Notes under the pieces: model-generated
The model's database searches: none
What the model was told of the DNA's origin: nothing
The model's input: the letters and a program-made list of their open reading frames with translations, nothing else
Part shown: positions 4,892 to 48,363 of the stretch, piece after piece
Numbering within the stretch: the first letter of the stretch is position 1
Layout: every line of letters starts with the position of its first letter
Assembly (NCBI GenBank): GCA_963765865.1
Contig: CAVXYE010000007.1
Coordinates: 277,923 to 341,922 of the forward strand
Source: an uncultured Actinomycetes bacterium
GTDB taxonomy: Bacteria; Actinomycetota; UBA4738; HRBIN12
Direction: 5' to 3'
DNA: 64,000 nt
Program-made: the position numbers and the translations under genes

Positions 4892-5466
4892 CGGAGGACG
4901 GCGACGAGGTTCGCAACGACGTGCGTCGTCGCGGGCGCGCCCCACCCCCCCGATGCCCATCGCTGCCACGACAACAGGAGCCCGGCTCCGAGGTCGACCC
5001 AGAAGACCGCCGGACCGTAGATCGGAACGTGGAGCGCCGCGAACAGGAGCGCGGACCCGCCGATCGCGATCGCCGCCCCGAACCGCACGAGCCCGCCGTA
5101 GACGAGCCGCCGGAAGAACAGCTCCTCCGACACGGCGGCGAGCGAGTTGAGCAGCAGGACCTCCGGGCCGTGCGGGACGGGGAAGCCGGGGCCGACGAGC
5201 CACGCCGCGAAGGCGATCGCGGCCACCCCCGTTGCCGTGACGATGAAGGGCGAGAGCGATGATGCATCACCCCGCGTGACCGTGGCCGCCAGCGAGGCCG
5301 AGCCCAGCACCACGTACAGCGCGGCGAACACGCCCACGGTCACGGGGAGACCGATGAACGAGGTGCGGACGAGCAGCAACGCCGAGCCGGCGATCACCGC
5401 GAGGACCATCGCCAGGTCGGCGTCGGTCGCTCGCGACCGACGCGCGTGGACCGACACCGCGATCAA
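4888..5466 (-). CDS. CPBP family intramembrane metalloprotease (CAAX protease / Abi domain)
   Basis: Shows the EELFFRRLVYGG and FAALH motifs in a polytopic membrane protein. TTG start at 5466 overlaps the stop of the lipoprotein gene (TTGA). An alternative ATG lies at 5409. Confidence 0.7.
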   Translation of the reverse strand: MIAVSVHARRSRATDADLAMVLAVIAGSALLLVRTSFIGLPVTVGVFAALYVVLGSASLAATVTRGDASSLSPFIVTATGVAAIAFAAWLVGPGFPVPHGPEVLLLNSLAAVSEELFFRRLVYGGLVRFGAAIAIGGSALLFAALHVPIYGPAVFWVDLGAGLLLSWQRWASGGWGAPATTHVVANLVAVLR

Positions 5467-5879
5467 TGCTTCACCTCGAACGCGACCTGGGCGATGACGC
5501 GCGGGTCGAACGGAAGGTGGTCGGAGGCGACGAACTCCACGCGCAACACGTGCAGGCCGGGTTGGACGGCCGTGAGCTTGGCGCTGGTGGAGAAGTTCAT
5601 CGATTCGATCTGATCGTCGAGGTACAGATGGAGATGCCCTTGATCGGGCGTGATGTTGGTGGTCGTCACCGGGACGATCGTGGCGTTCTCCAGCCGGACC
5701 TTCACGTCGACGACCGATCCGTGGACCACCTCACCGTCGGTCGGCGTCACGATCTGGACCTTGGCAGGACTGCTCGGCCTGGCGCCCGGGAGGGAGTCCG
5801 AGGCGCTGGTCGCCGACGAGCACGCGGCGCAGAGCACGAAGAGCACCAGCCACCCGACGACCGGTCGACGATCAGCCAC
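5463..5879 (-). CDS. Secreted (lipo)protein with a beta-sandwich-like domain; His-rich HLHLYLDD motif, possible metal binding
   Basis: Protein-like C-terminal 138 aa of ORF 5463..6032. Signal peptide RRPVVGWLVLFVLCAACSS. Putative GTG start at 5879, overlapping the Fur stop by 8 nt. The start is uncertain. Confidence 0.5.
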   Translation of the reverse strand: MADRRPVVGWLVLFVLCAACSSATSASDSLPGARPSSPAKVQIVTPTDGEVVHGSVVDVKVRLENATIVPVTTTNITPDQGHLHLYLDDQIESMNFSTSAKLTAVQPGLHVLRVEFVASDHLPFDPRVIAQVAFEVKH

Positions 5880-6336
5880 GGAGCGTATCGGCCCCCACCT
5901 CCGCGGCGCAATCGGCGCAGAGCCCGAGCAGGTCCAACCGGTGGGAGACTCGAGCGAACCCCGCACGCTTCGCGATCCGGTCGAGCGTTCGTTCGAGCGT
6001 TCGCTCGAGCTCCTCGGGAACGTCCACATCACGCATCTTGCCGCATCGCGAACAGACGAGGTGGTGGTGGTGGCCGATCAGGTCCTCGGCCAGCTCGTAC
6101 CGCCCGAACTCCTCATCCGTCACCAGCCGGCGCACCACCCCGGCCTGCTCGAGCGCGGCGAGGTTCCGGTAGACCGAGCTCTGTTTGAGACCGGAGCCGC
6201 CCGCGAGGATGTCCGGGATCGACACGGGGCTCCCCGCGTCGGCGAGCAGCTCGATCAATCGCCGACGTTGCGTCGTGTACCGCTGGCCGGCTGACCGGAG
6301 CCTCGCCGTCGCGGTCGCGTCGAGGTCGAAGCTCAT
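5872..6336 (-). CDS. Fur family transcriptional regulator (Fur/Zur/PerR-like)
   Basis: 154 aa. HTH-like N-terminus, HHHHLVCSRCGK...CADC with two CxxC pairs. ATG at 6336 with a strong SD (GGAGAGGAAcacggATG). ATGA overlap with the upstream GT4 stop. Confidence 0.85.
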   Translation of the reverse strand: MSFDLDATATARLRSAGQRYTTQRRRLIELLADAGSPVSIPDILAGGSGLKQSSVYRNLAALEQAGVVRRLVTDEEFGRYELAEDLIGHHHHLVCSRCGKMRDVDVPEELERTLERTLDRIAKRAGFARVSHRLDLLGLCADCAAEVGADTLRG

Positions 6337-7595
6337 CCGTGTTCCTCTCCGCGGAGCTCGAACAACGCCTCCGGGTACCGGACGCCGAGGCCGCGAGCTG
6401 CGTGCCGCGGGCCGAGGCCCGCGGGACGCAGCCCGCGCGCCCACCGCGCGATCGCGTTCCGGACGGGATCGGCGCGGAGCGCGACCAGGTCGTCGATCGC
6501 CTCCAGGTACACCGCAGCGGTCGTCGCGGGCGCCAGCGCATCGCGCGCGTACGCCCCCGCACGGTCGCCGATCGCCGCTCGACCCTGCGGGTCGCCGGCG
6601 AGTCGATCGATGACGTCCGCGAGCTCTTCCGGATCGGGCCGTCCCGGCCCGATCCGGACCACGACGTCGTCGGGGACCTCGAGGTACGTGCCGACGCCGC
6701 TCACGATCGTGGGCGTTCCCACCTGGAGGGCTCGCACGAGCGAGCCGCTGGACTCGCCCCGGTGCGGATACCGGAGGTTGACCAGGATGTCGAAGGCGCT
6801 CAGCCACGCGAGGAACTCGTCGTCGGCGACATCCGCGAAGACACGTACCCGCCCCCCGACGCCGGCGTCGCGGATCGCGGCGTCGACGTCCCACCCACCT
6901 CGTCGTCCGACGAGGACGAGCCGGACGGTCGAACGGACGTGTGCGAGCGCTTCGAGGAGCTGCGGGATCCCCTTCGTGGCGTTGAGGTCGCCCGCGACCC
7001 CGACCACGACCTCATCGGGACCTGCCACGCCGGCACGAAGCTCGTGCCCGCGGACCCGAGCACGCTCGATGTCCGCTTCCCGCTCAACGGTGGGGTGCGG
7101 CGCCACGAGGACGGGCGTCAGGCATCCGACCCGGTCGAGGTAGCTCTTCGCGAAGCCCGAATGGACGATGACGGCACGTGCGCGTCGAACGAGTTGCGCG
7201 CACCAAGGGACCCCGAGCGGATCGTCGTGATCCGCTCCCCTCGGCGTCGCGGCGATCGCTTCCTGGCGCGCGGGCGCGGCGAGCGGGCTCCTCACCTCGC
7301 CGAGGCCCCAGATCAGACCGTCGACCGCGAGGTCGTGGAGCACCACCACCCCCGGATGCCAGACCGACAGTGCGTAGATGTCGCCGTGGAACTCCACGTT
7401 GTTGCCGATCTGGTAGATGCCGACGTCGGCTGCGCGGACGCGCGCGCCGGCGTCGGGTTCGAACGGCGACACCGGATCGATCATGTGTCCGGACGCCGCG
7501 TCGATGTGGTCGAGCCCCTCGAGGACGGACGCCGCGTACGTCGCGATCCCGGTCTTCGCCGGAGGGAGCGGCGAGACGAACGCGACCGTCGCCAT
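6333..7595 (-). CDS. Glycosyltransferase family 4 (GT-B, Glycos_transf_1)
   Basis: 420 aa. C-terminal Glycos_transf_1 signature (RGESSGSLVRALQVGTPTIVSGVGTYLEV). 1-bp TGATG overlap with the upstream GT4. Confidence 0.8.
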   Translation of the reverse strand: MATVAFVSPLPPAKTGIATYAASVLEGLDHIDAASGHMIDPVSPFEPDAGARVRAADVGIYQIGNNVEFHGDIYALSVWHPGVVVLHDLAVDGLIWGLGEVRSPLAAPARQEAIAATPRGADHDDPLGVPWCAQLVRRARAVIVHSGFAKSYLDRVGCLTPVLVAPHPTVEREADIERARVRGHELRAGVAGPDEVVVGVAGDLNATKGIPQLLEALAHVRSTVRLVLVGRRGGWDVDAAIRDAGVGGRVRVFADVADDEFLAWLSAFDILVNLRYPHRGESSGSLVRALQVGTPTIVSGVGTYLEVPDDVVVRIGPGRPDPEELADVIDRLAGDPQGRAAIGDRAGAYARDALAPATTAAVYLEAIDDLVALRADPVRNAIARWARGLRPAGLGPRHAARGLGVRYPEALFELRGEEHG

Positions 7596-8647
7596 CAGCC
7601 GAGGAGACGGCGGACGACGCCGGGCCAGTCGGGCATCTTCTCGGCGACGAACGTTCGGCCGGCCGCGCCCAGACGTTCCCCTCGCGCGCGATCGTGGAAG
7701 AGCTCGTCGAACGCCGCCGCGATCTGCTCGGGCTCCGGCTCCACGATGACCCCGGTCTCCTCGTTCCGAGCGAACTCGAGCGGGCCACCGGAGTCCGTGG
7801 TCACGATGACGGGCCGGCCCGCGGCCATCGCCTCGATCGTCACGTAGCCGTAGTCCTCCTCATAGGGACCGAAGTAGACGCCCAGCGCGTCGCGATAGAG
7901 CTCGATCAACTCGTCGTCCGATACGCCGACGCGGATCTCGACGCGATCGGCCAGCCGCGCGTCCGCGATGCGCGTCCGGATCTTCTCGAGCTCGGTTCCC
8001 GACCCGACGAGCAACAACCGGACGTCCGACCGCACGTGCTGCATCGCATCGACGGCAAGCGCCTGCCGTTTCAGGGGGTCGAATCGGCTGGGGAACAGGA
8101 GGTAATCGCCTCCACCGTCACCGGGATCACGAGCCAACAGACGCTCGGTGAGATCGGAGCGATGGTAGAGGACCTCGCCGCGCACCCCGAGGGATCGCTC
8201 GAGCCGGCCCTTCACGTTCTCGGAATTCGTGAAGATCCGTTCGGCCTCCCCGAACGCGAGACGGTCGGAGGCGACCACCAGATCCCGGATCGCCGATCCG
8301 TCGGGAGCTTTGGAGAGATCGCCGAAGCCCGGATGACCCCACAGCTCATAGGCCGTGCGTTGCTGGTGGATGAGCCAGATGATCTTGCGCGGATGGTTGA
8401 CCAGGTATGCGGGAAACTTCATCGCGACGACGAGGTCGATGGACATCCCGTTGGCTTCGCGCAGATCGAGGCTCCGCCAGAGCCCCATCTGGTGCACCAG
8501 CTCCGAGGGTGGTGCCCACTGGAACGGGATCGTGGCGATCTCGGCCTCGTGACCGGCCTCGCGCAAGGCGCGGATCAATCCGTTGGCGTGCGTTTCGGCG
8601 CCGCCGGACATGAACGGGGGCTGGGGATGGCACACGAGGATCCGCAT
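7595..8647 (-). CDS. Glycosyltransferase family 4 (GT-B)
   Basis: 350 aa. EDYGYVTIEAMAAGRPVIVT...GG..E signature. 1-bp overlap with the upstream methyltransferase stop. Confidence 0.8.
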   Translation of the reverse strand: MRILVCHPQPPFMSGGAETHANGLIRALREAGHEAEIATIPFQWAPPSELVHQMGLWRSLDLREANGMSIDLVVAMKFPAYLVNHPRKIIWLIHQQRTAYELWGHPGFGDLSKAPDGSAIRDLVVASDRLAFGEAERIFTNSENVKGRLERSLGVRGEVLYHRSDLTERLLARDPGDGGGDYLLFPSRFDPLKRQALAVDAMQHVRSDVRLLLVGSGTELEKIRTRIADARLADRVEIRVGVSDDELIELYRDALGVYFGPYEEDYGYVTIEAMAAGRPVIVTTDSGGPLEFARNEETGVIVEPEPEQIAAAFDELFHDRARGERLGAAGRTFVAEKMPDWPGVVRRLLG

Positions 8648-9876
8648 CAGGGCTTCCTCGCGATCAGGGCGTAGTCCTGGGGTCGTTCGTCCTCGTCGGC
8701 GTTCATCAAACGAACCTCGGCCGAATCGAAGCCGGCGAAGCCGGCCATCACGCGGAGCGTCTCGGGGTTCGCGGGCCAGGTGTGGGTGATGTCACCGAAG
8801 AACCATCTGGCGAGCGCATCCACGTTCAGAGGGTAGATGGTCTCCACGACCAGGGCCCCGCCCGGGGCGAGCGCTCGTTGCGCATATTGCAGGAGCGGGA
8901 GCCAGGACGCCGGCGGAAGGTGTTCGACGACCTGGATCGCGCTCATCGCCGCCGGAGCCTCTCCCTCGTACGTGAGCAGGAAGTCGGGCAACGTCCCTTC
9001 GACGGCATCGATGCCACGCTCCTCGCACGTCGCGACGGCCTGCGCCGAGATATCCATGCCGAGCACCCGCCAGCCCCATCCCTGGAGCAGCGCGAGGAAC
9101 TGGCCCTCCCCGCATCCCAGATCGAGCCACAGCGGCGTACCTCCGTGTTGCGTCCGCAGCTGATCGGCGAGATCCCGATACTGGAGCAGCTTCTGCTCGA
9201 TCGACTCCTGCGAGCCGCGGAGCGCGGCTTCGAACCTCCAGTAGAACGCGTCCGGCAGGGCGGCCTCGGGATGGGGGGCCGGTGCCGCCGCGGCTGCCGG
9301 CGTGGATGCGGGCGCCGAACCGGTCACGCCGCCCGCCGACGCGAGCCGTCGGGACAACGCTTCGAGCTCTGAAGCCGCCGATCCGATCCGAACATCGTGT
9401 TCGTGGGCGACGGTCTGCGATGCCCGTAACGCCGTTCGGACCTCGTCCCACGCCGCCTCGGCCCGGCGAAGATCGGACCGGAGTTCCTGGAGCTCCGACG
9501 TGAGGCCGGCGATCTCCTGGCGGGCCGCCTCGAGCTCCCGGGACGTCTCGAGTCCGAGCAGCGCCAGGTCGGCGCCGATCCGGTCGTACCGGCGCATCAA
9601 CGGACGGAGCAACCGGAAGGTGAGCCGCTTGATCCTCCGCTTCAGCGGGCGACCCATCTGGAGGATCTGATCGTCCGGGAGCGGTCGGGAAGCGTGATCG
9701 CGACGAAGCGTCGCCTCCAGCTCCCCCCAGCGGATCGCGAGGTCCGACGTTCCGTCGGCCGATCGGGATCCCGGCGACGAACCGGACACGGGTGGCGCCG
9801 CCCAGTACAGCTCGCGGGCGAGTGAATCGGCGGCGGTCTCCTCCGTCGTCGACGTCCGTGCCTCGTCGCCCGTCAC
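8647..9876 (-). CDS. Class I SAM-dependent methyltransferase with an N-terminal coiled-coil region (WbdD-like architecture)
   Basis: Motif I LDLGCGEGQF and C-terminal Rossmann fold. About 150 aa of heptad-like LE/AR-rich sequence before the MT domain. GTG start at 9876, 4 nt after the mutY stop. Confidence 0.65.
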   Translation of the reverse strand: MTGDEARTSTTEETAADSLARELYWAAPPVSGSSPGSRSADGTSDLAIRWGELEATLRRDHASRPLPDDQILQMGRPLKRRIKRLTFRLLRPLMRRYDRIGADLALLGLETSRELEAARQEIAGLTSELQELRSDLRRAEAAWDEVRTALRASQTVAHEHDVRIGSAASELEALSRRLASAGGVTGSAPASTPAAAAAPAPHPEAALPDAFYWRFEAALRGSQESIEQKLLQYRDLADQLRTQHGGTPLWLDLGCGEGQFLALLQGWGWRVLGMDISAQAVATCEERGIDAVEGTLPDFLLTYEGEAPAAMSAIQVVEHLPPASWLPLLQYAQRALAPGGALVVETIYPLNVDALARWFFGDITHTWPANPETLRVMAGFAGFDSAEVRLMNADEDERPQDYALIARKP

Positions 9877-9880
9877 GAGC

Positions 9881-10834
9881 TCATCCCTCCGGTCGGGTGG
9901 CGGCCGAAAGGCTAAACGAATCGGAAGACCGACCGGGTTCGCGGTTCGAACGCTCCGACGGGTGGTTCACGGGAAGGCGGAACGAGCGGCCACGCCGCTC
10001 GACGATCCCGTCGCGGACGAGTCCGGTGACCGCCGACCCGACGCGATCGGCTCCGAACCCCGTCGCCGCGGCCAAGCCCAAGAGACCTGCCGACGGCCGC
10101 TCACGCAACACCGCCACGATCCGCCCGCGGACCTGACGGTTCGATCCCTCGAAGGGCGACTGCTTGGGGGCGACGGCCGACCTCCCGGGCCTGCCGGCGC
10201 TGCGGAACCGGCACCACGGCTCGAGCGGACACACATCGCATCGAGGCGTCGGGCGGCACACCTCGCGCCCGAGGTCCATCATCGCCTGGTTCCAGGTCGC
10301 GGGGTCACGCCGATCGAGCAGGACCCGAGCGGCCGCCGCGATCCGAGGACCGTCACGTTCCTCCGGCTCGCGACCGAGCACGACACGCGACGCTACCCGA
10401 CGAACGTTGACGTCCATCGCGACGACCGGCCGGCCGAACGCGATCGCTGCGACGGCCGACGCGGTATAGGGACCGACCCCCGGGAGCTGCTGGAGCGCTC
10501 CCGGATCGTCCGGCACCTCTCCACCGTGGACCCGGACGATGGTTCGAGCGGCCTCCTGCAGGGCGACGGCACGCCGGTGATACCCGAGCCCGGACCATGC
10601 GCGGAGCACGTCGGCCGGCGCCGCGGCCGCGAGGCTCGATACGTTCGGGAACCGCCGGAGGAACCGATCGAAGGCCGCAGCGACGCGGGCGGCCTGCGTC
10701 TGCTGCAGCATCACCTCGCTGACGAGGACCGCGTAGGGACCGATCCCGTCCCGGCGCCAGGGGTACCCCTCGCGCCGCGGGCGATACCAGGCGCGCAGCG
10801 CTCGTCGAAGGGGGCTAGGCTCAAGAGCGGTCAT
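9881..10834 (-). CDS. mutY: A/G-specific adenine DNA glycosylase (MutY; HhH-GPD superfamily with 4Fe-4S loop)
   Basis: ORF 9881..11065, trimmed to the ATG at 10834 by alignment to the MutY N-terminus (LRAWY..PWR..PY.VLVSEVMLQQTQ). Shows HhH motif LPGVGPYTA and CRPTPRCDVCPLEPWC. Confidence 0.8.
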   Translation of the reverse strand: MTALEPSPLRRALRAWYRPRREGYPWRRDGIGPYAVLVSEVMLQQTQAARVAAAFDRFLRRFPNVSSLAAAAPADVLRAWSGLGYHRRAVALQEAARTIVRVHGGEVPDDPGALQQLPGVGPYTASAVAAIAFGRPVVAMDVNVRRVASRVVLGREPEERDGPRIAAAARVLLDRRDPATWNQAMMDLGREVCRPTPRCDVCPLEPWCRFRSAGRPGRSAVAPKQSPFEGSNRQVRGRIVAVLRERPSAGLLGLAAATGFGADRVGSAVTGLVRDGIVERRGRSFRLPVNHPSERSNREPGRSSDSFSLSAATRPEG

Positions 10835-11195
10835 GCCGGCCATCCGCGAGCTCATGAGCATCGATCTCATCTCGGTCCCGCCCACGGCGACCGTCGCCGA
10901 GGCCGCCCAGGTGATGAGCCTCCAGCACGTCGGCGCTGCCCTCGTGATCGACGGTGAGGACCTGGTCGGCATCTTCACGGAGCGGGACATCGTGCGGGCG
11001 CTTGCCGCGGAGCACGACGCGGCAACCCATGAGGTCGGGGAGTGGATGACCAAGGACCCGGTCACCTTGGACGCCGACGCGTCCGCTCAGGAAACGCTCG
11101 CGCTGATGCTGGCCAAGGGGTTCCGTCATGTCCCCGTGACGGAGACCGGGCTGCTCGTCGGCATCGTGTCGATGCGTGATCTCTCCATCCGATGA
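10833..11195 (+). CDS. CBS domain pair protein
   Basis: 120 aa. Two CBS repeats (ELMSIDLISV...GIFTERDIVRAL; EWMTKDPVTL...GIVSMRDL). ATG at 10833 overlaps the divergent mutY ATG. Confidence 0.7.
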   Translation: MPAIRELMSIDLISVPPTATVAEAAQVMSLQHVGAALVIDGEDLVGIFTERDIVRALAAEHDAATHEVGEWMTKDPVTLDADASAQETLALMLAKGFRHVPVTETGLLVGIVSMRDLSIR

Positions 11196-11229
11196 CGGGC
11201 GGCTCCGTTGCCGGCCCGTGACGCCGTTG

Positions 11230-11412
11230 CTAGAAGCCGGCCCGAGACTCGGAGTTGATCATGGCTGTGACGACCTCTTGGAGCGCCGCGTGGACGGCGC
11301 GGAAGATGTCCGCCACCTGGTCCGGCGTCGCCGTCGCGGCCGAGCCTCTGGCCGCCATCGCCGTGATGTCGCATGCCTTGTCGAACACGTGCCAGTCGCT
11401 CTCGCGGGACAT
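11230..11412 (-). CDS. Small hypothetical protein (60 aa)
   Basis: Strong RBS (GAGGAGGAAcatccgATG). About 90% GC at third positions. The antisense ORF 11255..11470(+) is compositionally poor. Confidence 0.5.
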   Translation of the reverse strand: MSRESDWHVFDKACDITAMAARGSAATATPDQVADIFRAVHAALQEVVTAMINSESRAGF

Positions 11413-11536: not shown

Positions 11537-11587
11537 AACTAGGGTGAACGGGCGGCATCAGGCCGGCCTCGGCCCAGGAGGGTGTGC

Positions 11588-11935
11588 ATGAAGTATGCGT
11601 TGTTGATCTACGCGGACGAGAAGGCGTGGGCGTCGGTCCCACACGATGAGCAGCACGCGATCTACGAGGAGTACGACAAGTTCGCGAACGAGCTCGTCGA
11701 GCGCGGCGTGATGCGCGGCGGCGACCAGCTCGCGGACAGCCCGGCCGCCACCACCGTCCGCGTGCGGGACGGCCAGCAGCTCGTCACCGATGGTCCGTTC
11801 GCGGAGACGAAGGAGCAGCTCGGCGGCTACTTCCTGGTTGAGGTCGACGACCTCGACACCGCGATCGAGCTCGCGGGCAAGCTCCCGGGGGCGCGGCACG
11901 GCTCCGTGGAGGTGCGCCCCATCATCGAGGGATGA
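11588..11935 (+). CDS. YciI-like (YCII-related/DGPF domain) protein
   Basis: MKYALLIY...DGPFAETKEQLGGYFLVEVDDLDTAIELAGKLP. ATG at 11588 with SD AGGAGGG. ATGA overlap with the sigma gene. Confidence 0.8.
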   Translation: MKYALLIYADEKAWASVPHDEQHAIYEEYDKFANELVERGVMRGGDQLADSPAATTVRVRDGQQLVTDGPFAETKEQLGGYFLVEVDDLDTAIELAGKLPGARHGSVEVRPIIEG

Positions 11936-13152
11936 CCGACGCGCTCGGAGCCCTCGAGCGATCCTTCCGGCAGGGCTCCGGGCGGGCGGTGGCGGCCCTG
12001 ATCCGGGTCACGGGGGACTTCGACCTCGCCGAGGAGGCGGTCCAGGACGCGTTCGAGGTCGCGCTGCGCACCTGGCCGAGCCGCGGCGTGCCGGACAACC
12101 CTGAGGCATGGATCGTGACGACCGCGCGCAACCGCGCGATCGACAAGCTCCGGCGTGAGCGCGTCGGCCGGGCGAAGACCGAGGCCGCCGCGCAGATCGC
12201 CGAGCTGGAGACCATCGGAGCCGACGTGCAGGAGATCCCGGACGACCGCCTCCGGCTCCTCTTCACGTGTTGCCATCCGGCCCTCGCGATGGACGCCCGG
12301 GTCGCGCTGACGCTCCGAACGGTCGCGGGGCTGTCGACCCGCGAGATCGCGCGGGCATTCCTCGTTCCGGAGCCGACCCTCGGGCAACGTCTCACCCGCG
12401 CGAAGCGCAAGATCCGCGACGCCGCGATCCCGTACCGCGTGCCGCCGAGGGAGCTCCTGCCGGAACGTCTCGACGGCGTGCTCGCCGTTCTGTACCTGGT
12501 CTTCAACGAGGGATACGCCGCGACCCAGGGCGAGCTGCTTCGAGCCGAGATGGGCGACGAGGCGATCCGGCTGGCCCGGCTCGTCGATCGGCTCCTCCCG
12601 GGGGACGAGGACGTTCGCGCCCTGCTCGCGCTGATGCTGCTCCAGCACGCCCGTCGCGCCGCTCGAACCGACGGGGCGGGCGACCTCGTCCTGCTCGAGG
12701 ACCAGGACCGCTCCCGATGGGATCACGTCATGATCGACGAGGGGCTGTCGTTGCTGTCCGAGGCCGCGCGGCGCCCGGGCGCCTATCGCGTGCAGGCCGA
12801 GATCGCCGCGTGTCACGCCCGGGCGCCGCGCCCCGAAGACACTGACTGGCCCGAGATCGCGACCCTGTACGGCCGTTTGGCGACGCTCCAGCCGTCGCCG
12901 GTCGTCGAGCTCAATCGGGCGGCCGCCGTCGCGATGGCCGACGGGCCCGAGACCGGGCTGCGGATGCTCGTGCCGCTCCAAGCCGACCTGGATCGCTATC
13001 ACCTGTTCCATTCCGCCAAGGCCGATCTGCTCCGTCGCGCCGGGCGGACCGACGACGCGGTCGAGGCGTACCGGCGGGCGCTCGACCTGACGACGAATGA
13101 CGCCGAACGTCGCTTCTTGGAGCGACGGCTGACTGCGCTGCAGCGAGCCTGA
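11932..13152 (+). CDS. ECF-type RNA polymerase sigma factor with a long C-terminal extension (sigma-24-like / DUF6596-type)
   Basis: Sigma-70 region 2 (PEAWIVTTARNRAIDKLRRER) and region 4 (LSTREIARAFLVPEPTLGQRLTRAKRKIR), plus a ~230-aa helical C-terminal domain. This is the classic pairing with YciI-like genes. Confidence 0.8.
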   Translation: MTDALGALERSFRQGSGRAVAALIRVTGDFDLAEEAVQDAFEVALRTWPSRGVPDNPEAWIVTTARNRAIDKLRRERVGRAKTEAAAQIAELETIGADVQEIPDDRLRLLFTCCHPALAMDARVALTLRTVAGLSTREIARAFLVPEPTLGQRLTRAKRKIRDAAIPYRVPPRELLPERLDGVLAVLYLVFNEGYAATQGELLRAEMGDEAIRLARLVDRLLPGDEDVRALLALMLLQHARRAARTDGAGDLVLLEDQDRSRWDHVMIDEGLSLLSEAARRPGAYRVQAEIAACHARAPRPEDTDWPEIATLYGRLATLQPSPVVELNRAAAVAMADGPETGLRMLVPLQADLDRYHLFHSAKADLLRRAGRTDDAVEAYRRALDLTTNDAERRFLERRLTALQRA

Positions 13153-13207: not shown

Positions 13208-14635
13208 ATGCTCTTCCCCACGACGGACTTCGCGATCTTCTTCTGCCTGGTCTTCCTGGGCCACTGGTGGCTGAACCACAACCCGCGGTTGTGGAAGCCC
13301 TTCATGATCGCCGCGAGCTACGTCTTCTACGGCTGGTGGAACTGGCGATACGTGTTCCTCCTCGCCGCTGTCTCCCTCATCACCCAGATCGCGGCGATCG
13401 CCATCGACCGCCAACGAGAGCCGAGGCGCCGGTCGGTCGCCTTGGCGCTCGGCGTCGCCGCGACGATCGCACCCCTCCTGTACTTCAAGTACTACGGCTT
13501 CTTCACCGTCAACGTCGCGAACGCCGCCACGACGTTCGGGCTGCACGTCGCCCCGCCGCTGATCCAGGTCGTGCTGCCGGTGGGGGTCTCCTTCTACACC
13601 TTCATGGCGATCGCCTACATCGTGGACATCTACCGCGGCGACTTCGAGGTCGCGAGCTGGGTCGACCTGTACCTCTACCTGTCCTTCTTCCCGCACCTGG
13701 TCGCCGGGCCGATCGTTCGTCCCAACGAGCTCATCCCGCAGCTCGACGTGCGGCGCGACCCCAGACACATCGACGTCGCAGGGGCGATGTGGCTGATCCT
13801 CGGCGGGTTGTTCAAGAAGGTGGTGATCGCCAACTATCTGGCGGGAGCGATCGTCGATCCCGTGTTCGGCGACCCTGCTCGGCACAGCTCGCCGGAAGCG
13901 ATCGTCGCGATCGTGGCCTACGCGGTCCAGATCTACTGCGACTTCAGTGGGTACACGGACATCGCGATCGGGATCGCGAAGTTGCTCGGGTTCCGATTCC
14001 CCCAGAACTTCGACCGCCCGTACAGCGCGCGCTCCGTCCAGGAGTTCTGGCGCCGCTGGCACATGACGCTCTCCCGGTGGCTGCGCGATTACCTCTACAT
14101 CCCGCTCGGGGGGAACCGGAAGGGAACGACGCGCACCTACGTCAACCTGATGATCACGATGCTCCTCGGCGGTCTGTGGCACGGCGCGGCCTGGCACTTC
14201 GTCGTGTGGGGGGGCTTGCACGGCGTGTACCTCGCGGTGGGCCACTGGAAGGACGGCAAGCGCGAGGCGGGGCAGCTCGCGGAACCCCCGGAGACGGCGC
14301 TCGTCCGCGGGATGCAGCAGCTCGCGACGTTCACGCTCGTGTGCATCGCGTGGACGCTCTTCCGAGCGGATTCCGTCGCGACCGCCCTCTCGTTGCTCGC
14401 GCGCACCGTGACCGCCTGGGGGCTGCCCTCACCGCTCGTCACCGCCCCTGTCCTGCTGGCCATCTCCGCCGGGCTCGTGACGCAGTTCCTTCCCCATCGG
14501 CCCGCGGAACGACTCAAGGTGGCTCTCTCGCGGCTGCGCCCGGTCCCGCTGGGGGTGACCGTCGCGGTCGTACTCTTCCTGATCACGACGCTCGGACCCC
14601 GCGGCGTCGCGCCGTTCATCTACTTCCAGTTCTGA
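13208..14635 (+). CDS. MBOAT family membrane-bound O-acyltransferase (AlgI/DltB-like)
   Basis: 475 aa, polytopic. Conserved MBOAT core (FWRRWHMTLSRWLRDYLYIPLGGNR...GLWHGAAW) with the catalytic His. Confidence 0.85.
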   Translation: MLFPTTDFAIFFCLVFLGHWWLNHNPRLWKPFMIAASYVFYGWWNWRYVFLLAAVSLITQIAAIAIDRQREPRRRSVALALGVAATIAPLLYFKYYGFFTVNVANAATTFGLHVAPPLIQVVLPVGVSFYTFMAIAYIVDIYRGDFEVASWVDLYLYLSFFPHLVAGPIVRPNELIPQLDVRRDPRHIDVAGAMWLILGGLFKKVVIANYLAGAIVDPVFGDPARHSSPEAIVAIVAYAVQIYCDFSGYTDIAIGIAKLLGFRFPQNFDRPYSARSVQEFWRRWHMTLSRWLRDYLYIPLGGNRKGTTRTYVNLMITMLLGGLWHGAAWHFVVWGGLHGVYLAVGHWKDGKREAGQLAEPPETALVRGMQQLATFTLVCIAWTLFRADSVATALSLLARTVTAWGLPSPLVTAPVLLAISAGLVTQFLPHRPAERLKVALSRLRPVPLGVTVAVVLFLITTLGPRGVAPFIYFQF

Positions 14636-14636
14636 G

Positions 14637-15698
14637 ATGACCACCGACACCCAGGAACGCACGACGACGCGTGAGCGGCCCGAGAACCCCGGCGACGGTT
14701 TGCCTCCGGGCCGCCGGGGCATGCCCGCCGGGCGGGTCCTCGTGGTGCTCCTCCTCGGGCTCCTCCTGTGGAGCCTGCTGTACGCGCCCGAGCTGAAGCG
14801 ATCGTCGGAGGCGCAGCCGGACGGTCTCCGGCGGACGGTCTCGCTCGCCGTCTTGGACCCGGTCGTGTGGGTGGAGGACCGCGTCGGCCTCGCGAGGCTG
14901 ATCGACAACGCCACCCAGGCGCTCGGTCGCCACCCGAACGAGGCGGTCGGGGGCGGCATCGACGTCGACCCGCTGCCGAGCGTTCCCGCGCCGGCACACC
15001 CCGTCGGACATCCGCAACGAGACACGAAGATCCGTGTGCCCACCGTCGCCAAGCCGTTGCGCGTGGTCGTCGTCGGGGACTCGCTGGCGCAGGGCATCGG
15101 GTCCTTCGCCGAGCGCGTATTCAAGCCGTCGCTCGTCGACGTCATCAAGCAAGGGCGCATCTCCACCGGGCTCGCTCGCCCCGACTACTTCAACTGGCCG
15201 GCACAGATGCGGACCATCGTCGATCGCTCTCGTCCCGACCTGACGATCGTGATGCTCGGCGAGAACGACGCCCAATCCCTGGTGACGCCGGCCGGCCAGG
15301 TGGTAGCCCAGATCGGCACCGGGGATTTCCCTCCCGCCTACGAACAGCGGGTCCGTGCATTCGCGAGCCTCGCGACGTCGGAGGGCGGCCACGTGATCTG
15401 GGTCGGGCTCCCCAACCCACGCGACTCGCGGCGCTGGGATTTCATCGAGCGACAGAACGGCGCCTTCCAGGCGGTCGCCGACGAGCTCCCGAACGTGTCG
15501 TTCTTCGACACGTGGAGCACGTTCGCCGCGCCGGGCGGCGGCTACACCGCGTATTACCACGACGGCAAACACCTCACGCTCGTGCGTGCTGATGATGGTG
15601 TGCACTTCAACGCCGACGGATACACGATCTTGATGCGGTTGGTCGCCCAGTTCGCGACGGATCAGTTCCGGTTGGATCCCAAGACCTACGAGGGATGA
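14637..15698 (+). CDS. SGNH/GDSL hydrolase-fold protein with an N-terminal membrane anchor (AlgJ/DltD/PatB-like O-acyl transfer partner)
   Basis: TM helix RVLVVLLLGLLLWSLL. Block I VVVVGDSLAQG and block V DGVHFNADGY. Starts 1 nt after the MBOAT stop. Confidence 0.75.
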   Translation: MTTDTQERTTTRERPENPGDGLPPGRRGMPAGRVLVVLLLGLLLWSLLYAPELKRSSEAQPDGLRRTVSLAVLDPVVWVEDRVGLARLIDNATQALGRHPNEAVGGGIDVDPLPSVPAPAHPVGHPQRDTKIRVPTVAKPLRVVVVGDSLAQGIGSFAERVFKPSLVDVIKQGRISTGLARPDYFNWPAQMRTIVDRSRPDLTIVMLGENDAQSLVTPAGQVVAQIGTGDFPPAYEQRVRAFASLATSEGGHVIWVGLPNPRDSRRWDFIERQNGAFQAVADELPNVSFFDTWSTFAAPGGGYTAYYHDGKHLTLVRADDGVHFNADGYTILMRLVAQFATDQFRLDPKTYEG

Positions 15699-24725: not shown

Positions 24726-25805
24726 ATGACGGTGGACGAAGTCGTATCGGATCGTGACGGGTTCGCGGAGCGGGTCTTCGCCTCGTCGCTCGGCTACTTC
24801 GACATCCTGTCGATCCATCTCGGCCTGCGCCTCGGTCTGTATCGCGCGCTCGCGGACGGCGGCGCGATGACGTCGGACGAGCTGGCGAGCGCGGCCGGCA
24901 TCGACGAGCGCTACGCGCGGGAATGGCTCGAACAACAGGCGACGCGAGCGATCCTCCTCGCCGATCGCGGTGCCGAACCGACCCGGTTCACGCTTCCGCC
25001 CGGGCACGCCGAGGTCCTCCTCGACGGCGACTCGCTGTCGTTCCTGGGCGCGAGCGTCGGCCAACTGATGAGCCTCCCGACCGCGTTCCACGCGGTCGAG
25101 GAAGCGTTCCGCACGGGGGGCGGCGTCCCGTACGACGCGTACGGGAAGGAGAGCGTGGAGGGCCAGGGCGCGAGCAACCGTCCGACCTTCCTCACGACGC
25201 TCCCGAACGAGTGGCTGCCGGCGATCGACGCGATCCACGACCGCCTCTCGGCTGGACCCGCGCGGGTCGTCGACGTCGGCTGCGGCACCGGGTGGTCGTC
25301 GATCGCGATCGCGCGCGCGTACCCGTCGGTCGAGGTCGACGGGTTCGATGCGGATGACACCTCGATCCGGATGGCTCGCGATCATGCGCTCGAGGCGGGG
25401 ATCGCCGACCGCGTCCGCTTCCATCGTGCGGATGCCGCGGAGCTGACCAGCCAGGGACCGTTCGACGTCGCAACGGCGTTCGAATGCATCCACGACATGG
25501 CGCGACCCGTCGAGGTGCTCGGCGCCGTTCGGGAGGCCCTCGTGGATGACGGGGCGATGCTGGTCGTCGACGAGCGCACGAAGGATGCGTTCTCGGGCGA
25601 GCCCGACGACCGCGAGGCGTACTTCTACGGCTGGAGCGTGTTCGACTGCCTCCCGACCGGCATGTACGAACAACCGTCGGCGGGAACGGGCACGGTGATG
25701 CGGGCGTCGACGCTCCAGCGCTATGCGAACGAGGCCGGCTTCACGAGGTTCGACGTACTCCCGATCGAGCACGACGCCTTCCGGTTGTACCTGCTGCGCC
25801 CATAG
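24726..25805 (+). CDS. Class I SAM-dependent methyltransferase with an N-terminal dimerisation/winged-helix domain (O-MT family-2-like)
   Basis: VVDVGCGTGWSSIAIA motif I. Starts directly after the SDR stop. Confidence 0.75.
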   Translation: MTVDEVVSDRDGFAERVFASSLGYFDILSIHLGLRLGLYRALADGGAMTSDELASAAGIDERYAREWLEQQATRAILLADRGAEPTRFTLPPGHAEVLLDGDSLSFLGASVGQLMSLPTAFHAVEEAFRTGGGVPYDAYGKESVEGQGASNRPTFLTTLPNEWLPAIDAIHDRLSAGPARVVDVGCGTGWSSIAIARAYPSVEVDGFDADDTSIRMARDHALEAGIADRVRFHRADAAELTSQGPFDVATAFECIHDMARPVEVLGAVREALVDDGAMLVVDERTKDAFSGEPDDREAYFYGWSVFDCLPTGMYEQPSAGTGTVMRASTLQRYANEAGFTRFDVLPIEHDAFRLYLLRP

Positions 25806-32142: not shown

Positions 32143-33525
32143 ATGCAGCGGCAGGGGATGCTCACCATCGAGGAGCTCCAGGAGCTCGCCCGGAACAACC
32201 GGATCGACACCGTCCTCTGCATGTTCACCGACCTCCAGGGCCGGTACATGGGCAAGCGGGTGCTCCCGGACTTCTTCATCGAGGAGATCTTGGGCGCGGA
32301 AGGCCTGCACGCCTGTCTGTACCTGCTGGCGATCGACATGGAGATGGAGCCGCTCCCCGGGTACCGGTACGCCAGCTGGGAGACCGGCTACGGCGACTTC
32401 CGGATGATCCCGGATCTCACGACCCTCCGCTGGTGCCCGTGGATCGACAAGACCGCGATGGTGCTCTGCGACATCGCCGACGAGGACACGAGCGAGCCGG
32501 TCGCCGTCGCTCCTCGCCAGATCCTGAAGGACCAGATCGCGAAGGCCGCCGCCCAGGGGTATCAGGTCAAGACCGGGTCGGAGCTCGAGTTCTACCTCTT
32601 CAAGGACTCGTTCGACGATCTGGCGGAGCGCGCCTACCGAGATCCACGGCCGAGCTCCCCGTACATCATGGACTACCACATGCTGCAGACCACGAAAGAC
32701 GAGTGGTTCATCCGCCAGGTCCGCAACCACATGCGCGGTGCCGGTGTCCCGATCGAATTCTCCAAGGGGGAGTTCGGCAAGGGCCAGCACGAGATCAACA
32801 TCACCTACTCGGACGCGCTGTCGAACGCCGACCATCACGCGATCTACAAGCACGGTGCGAAGGAGATCGCCGCGCTCAGCGGCGTGGCGCTCACGTTCAT
32901 GGCGAAGTGGACGATGGCCGAGGCCGGTTCCTCGTGCCACCTCCATTCCAGCGTGTGGGACGTGGACGGTTCGGAGTCGCTCATGTGGGGCGGCGACACG
33001 CCGCCCCACATGAGCGACACCTTCCGGTGGTACCTGGGCGGCCTGATGACCACCGCGCGCGAGATGGCCTGGATGTACGCGCCCTTCGTCAACTCCTACA
33101 AGCGCTACCAGCTGGGATCGTGGGCACCGACCGCGATCGTGTGGAGCCGCGACAACCGCACGTGCGGGTTCCGCACGGTCGGCGAGCACACGGGGTTCCG
33201 CGTGGAATGCCGGTTGCCGGGCGCCGACGCGAACCCGTACCTCGCCTTCGCCGCCACGATCGCGAGCGGGATGTGGGGGATCCGCAACAAGGTGGAACCA
33301 CCGGAGATGTTCCACGGCAACGCCTACGAGGCCAAGGACGTCCCCCGTGTCCCGACCTCGTTGCACGAGGCGGTCGAGACGTTCCGCGGATCGACGGTCG
33401 CACGCGAGGCGTTCGGGGACTTCGTGTTCGAGCACCTGTTGAACACGGCCGAACAGGAACAGATCATCTTCGACAACACGTGCGTGACCGACTGGGAGCT
33501 GGCCCGGTACTTCGAGCGCGGGTGA
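32143..33525 (+). CDS. Glutamine synthetase family protein (GlnA3/PuuA-like gamma-glutamyl-amine ligase)
   Basis: 460 aa. GS catalytic-domain motifs (KGEFGKGQHEIN, SGMWGIRNK). Confidence 0.85.
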   Translation: MQRQGMLTIEELQELARNNRIDTVLCMFTDLQGRYMGKRVLPDFFIEEILGAEGLHACLYLLAIDMEMEPLPGYRYASWETGYGDFRMIPDLTTLRWCPWIDKTAMVLCDIADEDTSEPVAVAPRQILKDQIAKAAAQGYQVKTGSELEFYLFKDSFDDLAERAYRDPRPSSPYIMDYHMLQTTKDEWFIRQVRNHMRGAGVPIEFSKGEFGKGQHEINITYSDALSNADHHAIYKHGAKEIAALSGVALTFMAKWTMAEAGSSCHLHSSVWDVDGSESLMWGGDTPPHMSDTFRWYLGGLMTTAREMAWMYAPFVNSYKRYQLGSWAPTAIVWSRDNRTCGFRTVGEHTGFRVECRLPGADANPYLAFAATIASGMWGIRNKVEPPEMFHGNAYEAKDVPRVPTSLHEAVETFRGSTVAREAFGDFVFEHLLNTAEQEQIIFDNTCVTDWELARYFERG

Positions 33526-40254: not shown

Positions 40255-40321
40255 GCCGGCTCCTTCCGTCCCGCGCAACGGCTCCCGGTGTGGTGGGTAT
40301 ACCTTGACGGCCCATTGGTCC

Positions 40322-48360: not shown

Positions 48361-48363
48361 ACC

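What the first reader, a model, noticed from the sequence alone, without database searches (positions are those of the whole stretch)
8647..9876. Coiled-coil + SAM-methyltransferase next to two GT4 enzymes resembles a WbdD-like chain-terminating molecular ruler
E. coli O9a polymannan uses GT4 mannosyltransferases (WbdABC) and WbdD. WbdD's methyltransferase and kinase cap the chain, and its coiled-coil length sets polymer length. Here a class I MT domain sits beside about 150 aa of heptad-like sequence and is translationally coupled to two GT4 genes. That suggests a methyl-capped, length-controlled glycan (compare methylated mannose/glucose polysaccharides of actinobacteria). The domain order differs from WbdD (coiled coil N-terminal here, no kinase domain), so it may be an independent solution.
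Basis: inference. Interest (0 to 1): 0.5.

Follow-up and report, generated by a model that had tools for sequence, protein, structure and literature searches.

The report
Coiled-coil glycan-capping methyltransferase with GT4 partners
This gene most likely encodes an enzyme on a long helical stalk that adds a methyl cap to a sugar polymer made by the two neighbouring enzymes; it is a rearranged relative of the E. coli O8 chain terminator WbdD in an uncultured actinobacterium, so it is a variant of a known system and not a new one.

Summary
ORF 8647-9876(-) encodes 409 aa in four parts:
- a lineage-specific N-terminal module
- one 105-residue helix with heptad periodicity
- a Pro/Ala linker
- a C-terminal class I SAM methyltransferase (MT)

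The ORF overlaps the first of two GT4 genes by 1 nt (TGATG), and the two GT4 genes overlap in the same way.

The WbdD-like reading is partly supported.
- The MT domain belongs to the subfamily of E. coli O8 WbdD, the methyl-only terminator (29% identity over the whole domain, E 4e-20). It is not the O9a type.
- In 29 of 42 related Actinomycetota loci with enough flank, the MT and GT4 pair (intact in 28) lies next to Wzm and a Wzt carrying the Wzt_C carbohydrate-binding module. That is an O8-like ABC-transporter pathway.

Caveats:
- The window lineage has no transporter within about 74 kb.
- The coil lies N-terminal to the MT, the reverse of WbdD.
- A flexible linker argues against a rigid ruler.
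- Some homologues occur without GT4 partners.
- The same inverted order occurs in unstudied Pseudomonas and Ruegeria plasmid clusters.

Verdict: a probable terminal-capping methyltransferase, a new variant of a known kind, of modest interest.

The parts
8647..9876 (-). Whole gene: N-module, coiled-coil stalk, linker and WbdD(O8)-type SAM methyltransferase (409 aa)
   Evidence: ORF. GC3 0.82. Pfam MT families. AF2 model, mean pLDDT 84.9. dN/dS 0.04-0.19.
9649..9876 (-). aa 1-76: lineage-specific N-terminal region (LARELYWA motif, helix 42-62); no Pfam family
   Evidence: Alignment A1. AF2 helices H15-22 and H42-62. Only 49 representative clusters in 1.84 billion match aa 1-130. Similar to the stand-alone protein p143 of related loci.
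9562..9648 (-). aa 77-105: strongly basic amphipathic start of the long helix, with invariant K83, R91, R95, R96, D98, R99 (KR..FR..RP..RRYDR). Proposed membrane or polymerase docking site.
   Evidence: Invariant columns. 10 K/R against 2 D/E in 29 aa and no TM segment. Hydrophobic period 3.8, power above the shuffle 95th percentile. The docking role is inference.
9334..9648 (-). aa 77-181: single continuous alpha-helix of 105 residues (about 155 A), the predicted coiled-coil stalk
   Evidence: AF2 H77-181, pLDDT 82-95. Single heptad register over aa 108-158. Family periodicity 3.55, with a/d positions at KD 1.62 against -1.14 elsewhere. Weak SMC/GrpE matches. The short-coil relative P0057 has a 66-aa helix.
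9253..9333 (-). aa 182-208: disordered Pro/Ala-rich linker
   Evidence: pLDDT 49-55 and no secondary structure. 6 P and 10 A in 27 aa. Length and sequence vary in the alignment.
8650..9252 (-). aa 209-409: class I SAM-dependent methyltransferase domain of the WbdD(O8)/3DLI subfamily (FYWRFE..RGS, DLGCGEG, EHLP, PGG..ET, D.THTWP)
7595..8647 (-). GT4b: GT4 glycosyltransferase (350 aa), start overlaps the MT stop (TGATG)
   Evidence: Pfam Glycos_transf_1, E 2.6e-28. Junction. 55-59% identical over its full length to the GT4 that follows MT/p143 in transporter-linked loci.
6333..7595 (-). GT4c: second GT4-type glycosyltransferase (420 aa), start overlaps the GT4b stop (TGATG)
   Evidence: Pfam Glyco_trans_1_4 and Glycos_transf_1. 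Junction. 44-48% identical to the second GT4 of most transporter-linked loci (37-48% overall).
5872..6336 (-). fur-family regulator whose ATG overlaps the GT4c stop (ATGA). Probably Zur-like; co-transcribed, functional link unknown.
   Evidence: Pfam FUR. Junction. Relatives have znuACB between GT4c and fur.
9881..10843 (-). HhH-GPD (MutY/Nth-like) gene ending 4 nt upstream of the MT start. Same strand; probably only a neighbour.
   Evidence: Pfam HhH-GPD. Junction. In relatives at 54-55% identity it lies elsewhere.
13208..15698 (+). MBOAT O-acyltransferase plus DUF459/SGNH pair, kept within 0.1-4 kb of the trio throughout the window's clade. Possible O-acylation of the same exported glycan.
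   Evidence: Pfam. Synteny in L008, L010, L011, L065, L066. An MBOAT also sits in the P. asturiensis cluster. The functional link is inference.

Best explanation
The gene encodes a stalked methyltransferase that works with the two co-translated GT4 glycosyltransferases.

Shown:
- The C-terminal domain is a class I SAM methyltransferase of the same subfamily as E. coli O8 WbdD, the enzyme that ends polymannose O-antigen chains by methylating the non-reducing terminal sugar.
- It is preceded by a disordered linker, a 105-residue helix with heptad periodicity, and a conserved, strongly basic N-terminal module.
- MT-GT4b-GT4c is a conserved module. In most related Actinomycetota it lies beside wzm, a wzt with a Wzt_C carbohydrate-binding module, a GDP-mannose pyrophosphorylase-like gene and, in most of these loci, an LCP ligase within 10 kb upstream.

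Inferred:
- GT4b and GT4c extend a lipid-linked glycan at the cytoplasmic face of the membrane.
- The basic N-module docks the protein, as a coiled-coil oligomer, at the membrane or on the polymerase.
- The stalk and linker hold the MT about 10-20 nm away, so only chains that have grown long enough are methyl-capped.
- The cap stops extension and, in relatives, is the tag read by the Wzt module for export. In this lineage the exporter must be encoded elsewhere.
For: MT homology to WbdD(O8):
- 29% identity over aa 210-408 against aa 4-216, E 4e-20, with shared motifs.
- The WbdD(O8) gene was taken from the annotated IAI1 O8 cluster wbdC-wbdB-wbdA-MT-wzt-wzm-manB-manC.
- The catalytic and SAM motifs are invariant across 96 homologues.

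Architecture:
- AF2 model, heptad signals, no TM segment and net +8 charge in aa 77-105.

Operon:
- 1-nt overlaps between the three genes.

Synteny:
- 29 of 42 loci with at least 6 kb downstream carry p143, Wzm and Wzt after the MT (28 of them with GT4b in place).
- Wzt_C is confirmed in L006 Wzt and in 119 of the 120 listed relatives.
- L006 Wzt is 35% identical to O8 Wzt over 368 aa, and GT4a resembles WbdB(O8) at E 1.6e-41.

Coil length classes:
- The helix is 105 aa here and 66 aa in the transporter-linked clade. The motif-to-MT spacing is 94-111 against 47-60 residues and is conserved within each clade.

Other support:
- Purifying selection on all segments.
- The literature treats an extended coiled coil plus a terminator module as the marker of this assembly strategy (PMC11231755; PMC3482155).
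- The same coil-then-MT order occurs next to a Wzt_C-bearing Wzt in P. asturiensis pCC1524.
Against: - No Wzm/Wzt, p143, LCP or initiating transferase lies in the 64-kb window or 10 kb beyond the gene. None lies in any locus of the window's own clade either.
- Several proteins with the same N-module stand alone without GT4b/c (L005/L013, L014, L020, L042, L064).
- More distant MT-domain relatives sit next to ribosomal protein genes. MT homology alone is therefore not diagnostic of termination.
- P. aeruginosa PA5457 and PA5459 also resemble WbdD(O8) but do not behave as chain-length regulators (PMC3560663).
- The 27-residue disordered linker would blur any ruler.
- The N-module shows no significant similarity to the C-terminal region of WbdD(O8) (hhalign probability 1.3%).
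- Oligomeric state, substrate sugar and terminal specificity are untested.
Confidence: 0.55

Rival explanations
1. The methyltransferase decorates the glycan without terminating it, by methylating internal residues or a nucleotide-sugar or lipid-linked intermediate. The helix serves only as an oligomerisation or scaffold element that keeps the MT in the GT4 complex, with no effect on chain length.
For: PA5457 and PA5459 resemble WbdD(O8) but do not regulate chain length in the WbdD manner (PMC3560663). The flexible Pro/Ala linker fits a tether better than a ruler. The MT subfamily is broad and includes an archaeal protein of unknown function, 3dli.
Against: PA5457 and PA5459 lack the extra interaction domains, whereas this protein has a conserved 105-aa helix and docking module under purifying selection. 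Orthologues are linked to a Wzt with a CBM, which in the known systems reads a terminal cap (PMC3482155). Helix length falls into two conserved classes.
Confidence: 0.2
2. The stalked MT acts on another envelope substrate and does not depend on GT4b/GT4c. The adjacency and overlap in this clade would then reflect inherited gene order and not a shared pathway.
For: Proteins with the same N-module occur without GT4 neighbours, beside sulfatase or phosphoesterase genes (L005, L013, L064), or alone (L014, L020, L042). Distant relatives lie after rpsF-rpsR-rplI, next to DUF2142 or a sulfatase.
Against: The MT-GT4b-GT4c order persists from 34% to 100% MT identity across about 38 loci while the surroundings change. 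Stop and start codons overlap.
Confidence: 0.12
3. In the window's lineage the trio has been uncoupled from export. It makes an intracellular methylated oligo- or polysaccharide, analogous to mycobacterial methylmannose or methylglucose polysaccharides.
For: No transporter lies near the trio in any of the clade's loci. A GT4 plus MT is the minimal gene set of such pathways (own knowledge of the MMP and MGLP clusters).
Against: The MT's nearest characterised relative is the O-antigen terminator WbdD(O8), not the mycobacterial enzymes. No mycobacterial polymethylated-polysaccharide methyltransferase appeared among the listed PDB sequence or fold matches. No hydrolase or branching-enzyme partner is present. 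An MBOAT/SGNH pair, typical of modification outside the cytoplasm, stays beside the trio. Intracellular methylated polysaccharides are methylated on most residues, which would not need a stalk.
Confidence: 0.08
4. The trio is a decaying remnant of the full cluster and no longer functions.
For: The transporter, p143, GT4a and LCP are missing locally. GT4b is split in one assembly of the same genome (L003).
Against: dN/dS is 0.04-0.19 in all segments. The ORFs are intact in the window and in four other species of the clade. The split in L003 is one of several frameshift differences among assemblies of the same genome and looks like sequencing error.
Confidence: 0.03

Closest known systems
WbdD of E. 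coli serotype O8 (methyl-only O-antigen chain terminator; WP_000535779.1 in strain IAI1)
   Same: The MT domain belongs to the same subfamily: 29% identity over the whole domain, E 4e-20, with shared FY..FE..RGS, D(L/I)GCG.G, EHLP, PGG..ET.NP and D.TH..P motifs. There is no kinase. A coiled-coil region is attached to the MT. It is encoded with GT4 transferases, and orthologous loci have Wzm plus a Wzt with a CBM similar to O8 Wzt.
   Different: The domain order is reversed: WbdD(O8) runs MT, coil, basic C-terminal region, while this protein runs N-module, basic motif, coil, linker, MT. The non-catalytic regions show no detectable homology. GT4b and GT4c show only generic GT4 similarity to WbdA. 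No transporter lies nearby in this lineage. The host is an uncultured actinobacterium, where the product is probably a wall-linked polymer and not LPS.
WbdD of E. coli O9a / K. pneumoniae O3 (kinase-methyltransferase, trimeric coiled-coil molecular ruler; PDB 4AZS, 4AX8, 4UW0)
   Same: The concept is the same: a terminator catalytic module held at the far end of a coiled coil, with the membrane and polymerase docking region at the near end (PMC3482155; PMC11231755).
Other coiled-coil terminator proteins of ABC-transporter-dependent glycan assembly (K. pneumoniae O12 WbbB, O7 ORF6, O4 ORF7)
   Same: Each has an extended coiled coil joined to a chain-terminating module, with polymerising GT modules in the same protein or in neighbours. 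Catalytic modules are distributed flexibly among polypeptides (PMC11231755).
   Different: In all of those proteins the terminator lies N-terminal to the coil, and some carry GT modules at the C-terminus. Their chemistries differ (Kdo, methyl-phosphate). All come from Gram-negative LPS.
Uncharacterised coil-then-MT proteins in proteobacterial plasmid glycan clusters (P. asturiensis pCC1524 N015_RS26055; Ruegeria sp. TM1040 TM1040_RS19635)
   Same: They share the order N-terminal coiled coil, Ser/Ala/Pro linker, C-terminal WbdD(O8)-type MT. They share 30.5% identity with the window protein over 68-78% of its length. GT4 genes follow them. In P. asturiensis a Wzt with Wzt_C (E 8e-31) lies directly upstream, with an MBOAT and Wzm in the cluster.
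   Different: They lack the actinobacterial N-module (YWA and RP..RRYDR motifs). The P. asturiensis protein instead has what looks by eye like a DUF4214-type N-terminus (no Pfam match at E 1e-4). None has been studied experimentally.
PA5457 and PA5459 of the P. aeruginosa common polysaccharide antigen locus
   Same: They are reported to have MT domains similar to WbdD(O8), in an ABC-transporter-dependent GT4 (rhamnan) pathway (PMC3560663).
   Different: They lack the membrane and GT interaction regions and do not shorten chains when overexpressed. The window protein has a long helix and a docking module. No sequence comparison was made here.
PDB 3DLI, SAM-dependent methyltransferase from Archaeoglobus fulgidus (structural genomics, function unknown)
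   Different: It is the MT domain alone, with no coil or N-module, and its substrate is unknown.

Membership tests
WbdD, E. coli O8 type (chain-terminating methyltransferase) | Methyltransferase domain of the WbdD(O8) sequence subfamily | tested here: met
   BLASTP of aa 210-408 against WbdD(O8) aa 4-216: 29% identity, E 4e-20, covering the whole domain with shared motifs.
WbdD, E. coli O8 type (chain-terminating methyltransferase) | Domain order: N-terminal catalytic domain, then coiled coil, then C-terminal membrane- and WbdA-binding region | tested here: not met
   The order here is N-module, coil, linker, MT. hhalign of the N-module profile against the WbdD(O8) C-terminal half gives probability 1.3%.
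WbdD, E. coli O8 type (chain-terminating methyltransferase) | Encoded in a cluster with wzm and a wzt carrying a carbohydrate-binding module | tested here: not met
   None in the window or its flanks. The feature is met in 29 of 42 orthologous loci of other Actinomycetota. The rest of this genome could not be searched.
WbdD, E. coli O8 type (chain-terminating methyltransferase) | Methylates the non-reducing terminal sugar, and dosage or coil length sets the modal chain length | not testable with these tools
   This needs glycan chemistry and genetics.
WbdD, E. coli O9a type (kinase-methyltransferase) | Eukaryotic-like kinase domain between the MT and the coil | tested here: not met
   No kinase family in Pfam or NCBIfam. 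AF2 shows only helices before the MT.
WbdD, E. coli O9a type (kinase-methyltransferase) | MT domain specifically related to the O9a MT domain | tested here: not met
Coiled-coil terminator proteins of ABC-transporter-dependent glycan assembly (functional class) | Extended coiled coil joined to a candidate terminating catalytic module | tested here: met
   105-aa helix with heptad periodicity joined to a WbdD(O8)-type MT. The oligomeric state was not tested.
Coiled-coil terminator proteins of ABC-transporter-dependent glycan assembly (functional class) | Polymerising GT modules in the same protein or adjacent genes | tested here: met
   Two GT4 genes with overlapping stop and start codons, conserved with the MT across about 38 loci.
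Coiled-coil terminator proteins of ABC-transporter-dependent glycan assembly (functional class) | Partner ABC transporter present in the same organism | tested here: inconclusive
   Absent from about 74 kb around the gene. A database search with a related Wzt was saturated by closer relatives (all listed hits at least 71% identical) and showed none on the 1.52-Mb contig.
Class I SAM-dependent methyltransferases (Pfam Methyltransf_23/25/11) | Rossmann-like fold with a DxGxGxG SAM-binding motif | tested here: met
   Pfam scores are above the gathering cut-offs. D252, G254, G256 and G258 are invariant. The AF2 domain has pLDDT 97-98.
Mycobacterial polymethylated polysaccharide pathways (MMP, MGLP) | Cluster with dedicated O-methyltransferases plus a hydrolase or branching enzyme, and no stalk on the MT | tested here: not met
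   No hydrolase or GH57 neighbour. The MT carries a 105-aa helix. The nearest characterised relative is WbdD(O8). No direct sequence comparison with MeT1, MeT3 or Rv3030 was made.

The most novel reading that the evidence does not exclude
In this actinobacterial lineage the terminator may use a docking and ruler device that has not been described. This is a rare N-terminal module (about 46 clusters among 1.84 billion representatives, no Pfam family). In transporter-linked relatives it also exists as a stand-alone paralogue (p143) that could pair with the MT's short coil as a heteromeric stalk. In the window's clade p143 and the nearby transporter are gone and the MT's own helix has grown from 66 to 105 residues. 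That would suggest a self-sufficient homomeric ruler, possibly feeding a different export route or an O-acylated product (the MBOAT/SGNH neighbours).
Probability: 0.15. Interest if true: 0.6.

Novelty: new variant of a known kind. Interest (0 to 1): 0.38.

Why it matters
Control of glycan chain length by a coiled-coil terminator has been worked out only in a handful of enterobacterial O-antigens. This locus, and the roughly 40 related ones found here, suggest the same logic operates in uncultured soil Actinomycetota. The shared elements are a WbdD(O8)-type capping methyltransferase, GT4 polymerases and a Wzt with a cap-reading module. There the product is probably a wall-anchored polymer, since LCP ligase genes lie in most of the related clusters.

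The locus also shows that the parts can be arranged in reverse order, with the coil before the enzyme, and with a different docking module. Natural length variants exist (66 against 105 residues). These would make simple tests of the ruler idea. Practically, it gives a better name to a set of proteins now annotated only as 'class I SAM-dependent methyltransferase'.

Tried and rejected
- Single-sequence and profile searches of the PDB for WbdD O9a gave only a generic SAM-motif match. The O9a comparison was dropped in favour of O8 WbdD, which I fetched from the E. coli IAI1 genome.
- hhalign of the N-module against the C-terminal half of WbdD(O8) was not significant. A tempting RYD alignment at the start of both coils is treated as chance.
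- I looked for this genome's own Wzt by searching the protein database with a related Wzt and checking for the 1,520,375-bp contig length. The list was saturated by closer relatives, so the result is uninformative.
- tblastn of all L006 cluster proteins against the window found no Wzm, CBM-type Wzt, RmlB/D, LCP or p143. The two weak Wzt hits at 58.7-60.6 kb lie in an Opp/Dpp-type importer locus.
- The promoter and terminator scan of 5300-11300 gave nothing beyond chance.
- The afdb50 fold library was unavailable. The Mann et al. 2019 Glycobiology survey is not held.
- A regex search for p143 picked up many off-frame high-GC ORFs and was replaced by tblastn-anchored extraction.
- dN/dS for L009 and L010 failed because the wrong frame was chosen. 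Only L007, L008 and L011 are used.
- My first labels 'GMD' and 'RMD' for two L006 genes are probably wrong. The reductase gives a strong RmlD_sub_bind match (E 1e-66). The dehydratase I re-read by eye as RmlB-like, because Pfam does not discriminate. The sugar made is therefore left open.
- A defence-system reading suggested by the weak GT4-conflict Pfam hit was rejected, because stronger generic GT4 families cover the same region.
Full report
**What is at the coordinates.** The ORF 8647-9876 on the minus strand is real. It is 409 aa with a GTG start and a GGAGGG ribosome-binding site. Its GC3 of 0.82 fits coding sequence in this 70% GC genome. dN/dS is 0.04-0.19 in each of four segments against orthologues of 97% and 88% identity.
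- Pfam places class I SAM-methyltransferase (MT) families at aa 238-384 (Methyltransf_23, E 1e-14) and nothing else, so there is no kinase.
- The two genes downstream on the same strand are GT4 glycosyltransferases of 350 and 420 aa. The stop and start codons overlap as TGATG at both junctions.
- A mutY-like gene ends 4 nt upstream. A fur-family gene overlaps the last GT4 stop as ATGA.
- An identical protein is found on ENA metagenome contigs of up to 1.52 Mb. Nearly all relatives in the genome collection are uncultured Actinomycetota MAGs.

**Anatomy of the protein.** An AlphaFold2 model built on 96 homologues (mean pLDDT 84.9) shows five parts:
- short helices at aa 15-22 and 42-62
- one uninterrupted helix at aa 77-181 (105 residues, pLDDT 82-95)
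- a disordered Pro/Ala linker at aa 182-208
- a Rossmann MT domain at aa 209-409 (pLDDT 97-98)

A home-made heptad score finds a single register over about aa 108-158, scoring 10.9 against a shuffle 95th percentile of 7.95. Hydrophobicity averaged over 17 homologues has a period of 3.55 across aa 77-181. The a/d positions are hydrophobic (KD 1.62 against -1.14 elsewhere). That whole-helix signal exceeds the shuffle 95th percentile, but sub-segments taken alone do not.

Weak NCBIfam matches to SMC and GrpE at aa 111-181 are the usual sign of coiled-coil composition. The coil is therefore about 105 residues at most, not 150.

Its first 29 residues (aa 77-105) carry 10 Lys/Arg against 2 acidic residues. 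Six positions there are invariant (K83, R91, R95, R96, D98, R99), and the segment has an amphipathic period of 3.8. There is no transmembrane segment.

**Which methyltransferase.**
- It matches only over the SAM-binding motif in a profile search (4ax8, E 7.5e-6).

I then fetched the O8 O-antigen cluster of E. coli IAI1 (wbdC, wbdB, wbdA, a 425-aa MT, wzt, wzm, manB, manC). That MT is WbdD(O8), the methyl-only terminator. It aligns with aa 210-408 of the window protein over its entire catalytic domain (29% identity, E 4e-20). Both share the FY..FE..RGS..I..L..Y, D(L/I)GCG.G, EHLP, PGG..ET.NP and D.TH..P motifs.

So the catalytic domain is homologous to a proven chain terminator. JGI's annotation already calls several full-length homologues 'O-antigen chain-terminating methyltransferase'. 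The non-catalytic parts are not detectably related (hhalign probability 1.3%), and the order is reversed. WbdD(O8) runs MT, coil, basic tail. This protein runs module, basic motif, coil, linker, MT.

**Evidence from related loci.** A scan of one genome per species gave 54 loci. I mapped the genes of one well-annotated relative onto all of them (L006; mapping).
- Of the 42 loci with an MT hit and at least 6 kb downstream, 29 have the order MT, p143, GT4b, GT4c, Wzm, Wzt, then a small EamA-like protein, sometimes a GT2, and a mannose-1-phosphate guanylyltransferase-like gene. GT4b is detectable in 28 of the 29 and GT4c in 27. Most of them also have an LCP ligase within 10 kb upstream.
- The Wzt carries the Wzt_C carbohydrate-binding module (also 119 of the 120 listed relatives). 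It is 35% identical to O8 Wzt over 368 residues.
- A further GT4 resembles WbdB(O8) (E 1.6e-41).
- The window's GT4b and GT4c are 55-59% and 44-48% identical to their counterparts in most of these clusters.

This is the gene set of an O8-type ABC-transporter pathway, in which a terminal cap is read by the transporter (PMC3482155; PMC11231755).

**What is different in the window's own clade.** Loci at 54-100% MT identity keep only MT-GT4b-GT4c (L001-L004, L007-L012, L063, L065, L066, and the P0021 contig).
- They have no p143 and no Wzm/Wzt within 10 kb.
- The remaining 54 kb of the window encodes nitrogen and carbon metabolism and an Opp-type importer.
- An MBOAT plus DUF459/SGNH pair stays within 0.1-4 kb of the trio throughout the clade, while other neighbours move.
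- The spacing from the basic motif to the MT is 94-111 residues in the long class, which comprises this clade and its closer relatives down to about 44% identity. It is 47-60 residues in the transporter-linked clade. AF2 gives helices of 105 and 66 residues respectively.
- p143 is a stand-alone copy of the N-module plus a short coil.
- The N-module is rare. Only 49 of 1.84 billion representative proteins match at E 1e-3 or better, three of them spurious repeats, and it has no Pfam family.

**Limits on the inference.**
- Some proteins with the same N-module occur without GT4 partners.
- More distant MT-domain relatives sit after ribosomal protein genes.
- PA5457 and PA5459 of P. aeruginosa resemble WbdD(O8) without acting as WbdD-type length regulators (PMC3560663).
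- The disordered linker would loosen any ruler.
- I could not search the rest of this genome for a transporter. The one indirect attempt was uninformative.

**Is the reversed order unique?** No. A tblastn search of plasmids found proteins with the same coil, linker and MT order in cultured Proteobacteria.
- In P. asturiensis pCC1524 the gene lies directly after a Wzt with Wzt_C (E 8e-31). It is followed by a GT4, a GDP-mannose dehydratase and another GT4, with an MBOAT and Wzm nearby.
- In Ruegeria sp. TM1040 two glycosyltransferases follow it.
- These proteins are annotated only as methyltransferases.

**Conclusion.** The most likely function is methyl-capping of the non-reducing end of the glycan built by GT4b and GT4c, with the basic N-module docking a coiled-coil oligomer at the membrane or polymerase (confidence about 0.55). 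A length-setting role for the stalk is plausible but untested.

This is a new variant of a known kind. The catalytic domain and the logic are those of WbdD(O8). The domain order, the docking module, the stand-alone paralogue in relatives and the actinobacterial setting are new or undescribed.

Noticed in passing
L006:11146-11577 (and the equivalent gene in about 33 related loci); absent from the window: p143 is a stand-alone protein of about 115-160 aa. It is a paralogue of the MT's N-terminal module (YWA motif, RP..RRYDR basic motif, coil of about 30 aa). It always lies between the MT and GT4b in loci that also carry Wzm/Wzt. It has no Pfam family. It may pair with the MT's short coil.
   Followed up: partly
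window 13208-15698 (+): An MBOAT O-acyltransferase and a DUF459/SGNH protein form a pair that stays within 0.1-4 kb of the MT-GT4-GT4 trio in every locus of the clade, directly divergent from the MT in L011, L065 and L066. An MBOAT also sits in the P. asturiensis glycan cluster. This may mean the glycan is O-acylated outside the cytoplasm.
   Followed up: partly
window 5872-6336 (-): A fur-family regulator starts with an ATG that overlaps the stop of the last GT4 gene. In relatives znuA, znuC and znuB lie between the GT4 and fur, so it is probably a zinc regulator (Zur) that has lost its znu genes here.
   Followed up: partly
L001, L002, L003 (three ENA assemblies of the same genome): The assemblies differ by frameshifts. 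The fur gene is called at 232, 196 or 154 aa, GT4b is split in L003, and the Rce1-like and Peripla_BP_6 genes are fused or split. These are most likely long-read indel errors, so single frameshifts in this genome should not be read as pseudogenes.
   Followed up: no
window 22368-45152: Three glutamine-synthetase-like paralogues (32143-33525, 38926-40278, 43863-45152) lie with two amino-acid permease genes, a class III aminotransferase and an aldehyde dehydrogenase. This looks like a gamma-glutamylation route for amine or polyamine catabolism.
   Followed up: no
window 45165-47552 (-) and 47608-49326 (+): A 795-aa fusion of a family III CoA-transferase with a complete acyl-CoA dehydrogenase lies next to electron-transfer flavoprotein beta and alpha subunits.
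   Followed up: no
window 24726-25805 (+): A second, unrelated class I methyltransferase has an Rv2258c-like winged-helix N-terminal domain.
   Followed up: no
window 11582-13152 (+); L067:6-1618: A YCII protein plus an ECF-type sigma factor with a DUF6596 domain lies between the MBOAT and the MT here. The same gene pair lies about 10 kb from the coil-MT gene on the Ruegeria TM1040 plasmid. This is probably coincidence.
   Followed up: no
L069:9001-10365 and L070:9001-10326: More distant MT-domain relatives (441-454 aa, with long N-terminal extensions) sit in a conserved position after rpsF-rpsR-rplI and before a DUF2142 membrane protein or a large sulfatase, near a class A PBP. This is a different and unexplained use of the same MT subfamily.
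   Followed up: no
L001:17134-20808 (beyond the window start; also L063:6782-10468): An unusually large MFS_1 protein (1215-1246 aa) is conserved a few kb downstream of the trio in the clade, followed by an alpha/beta hydrolase and an EamA transporter.
   Followed up: no
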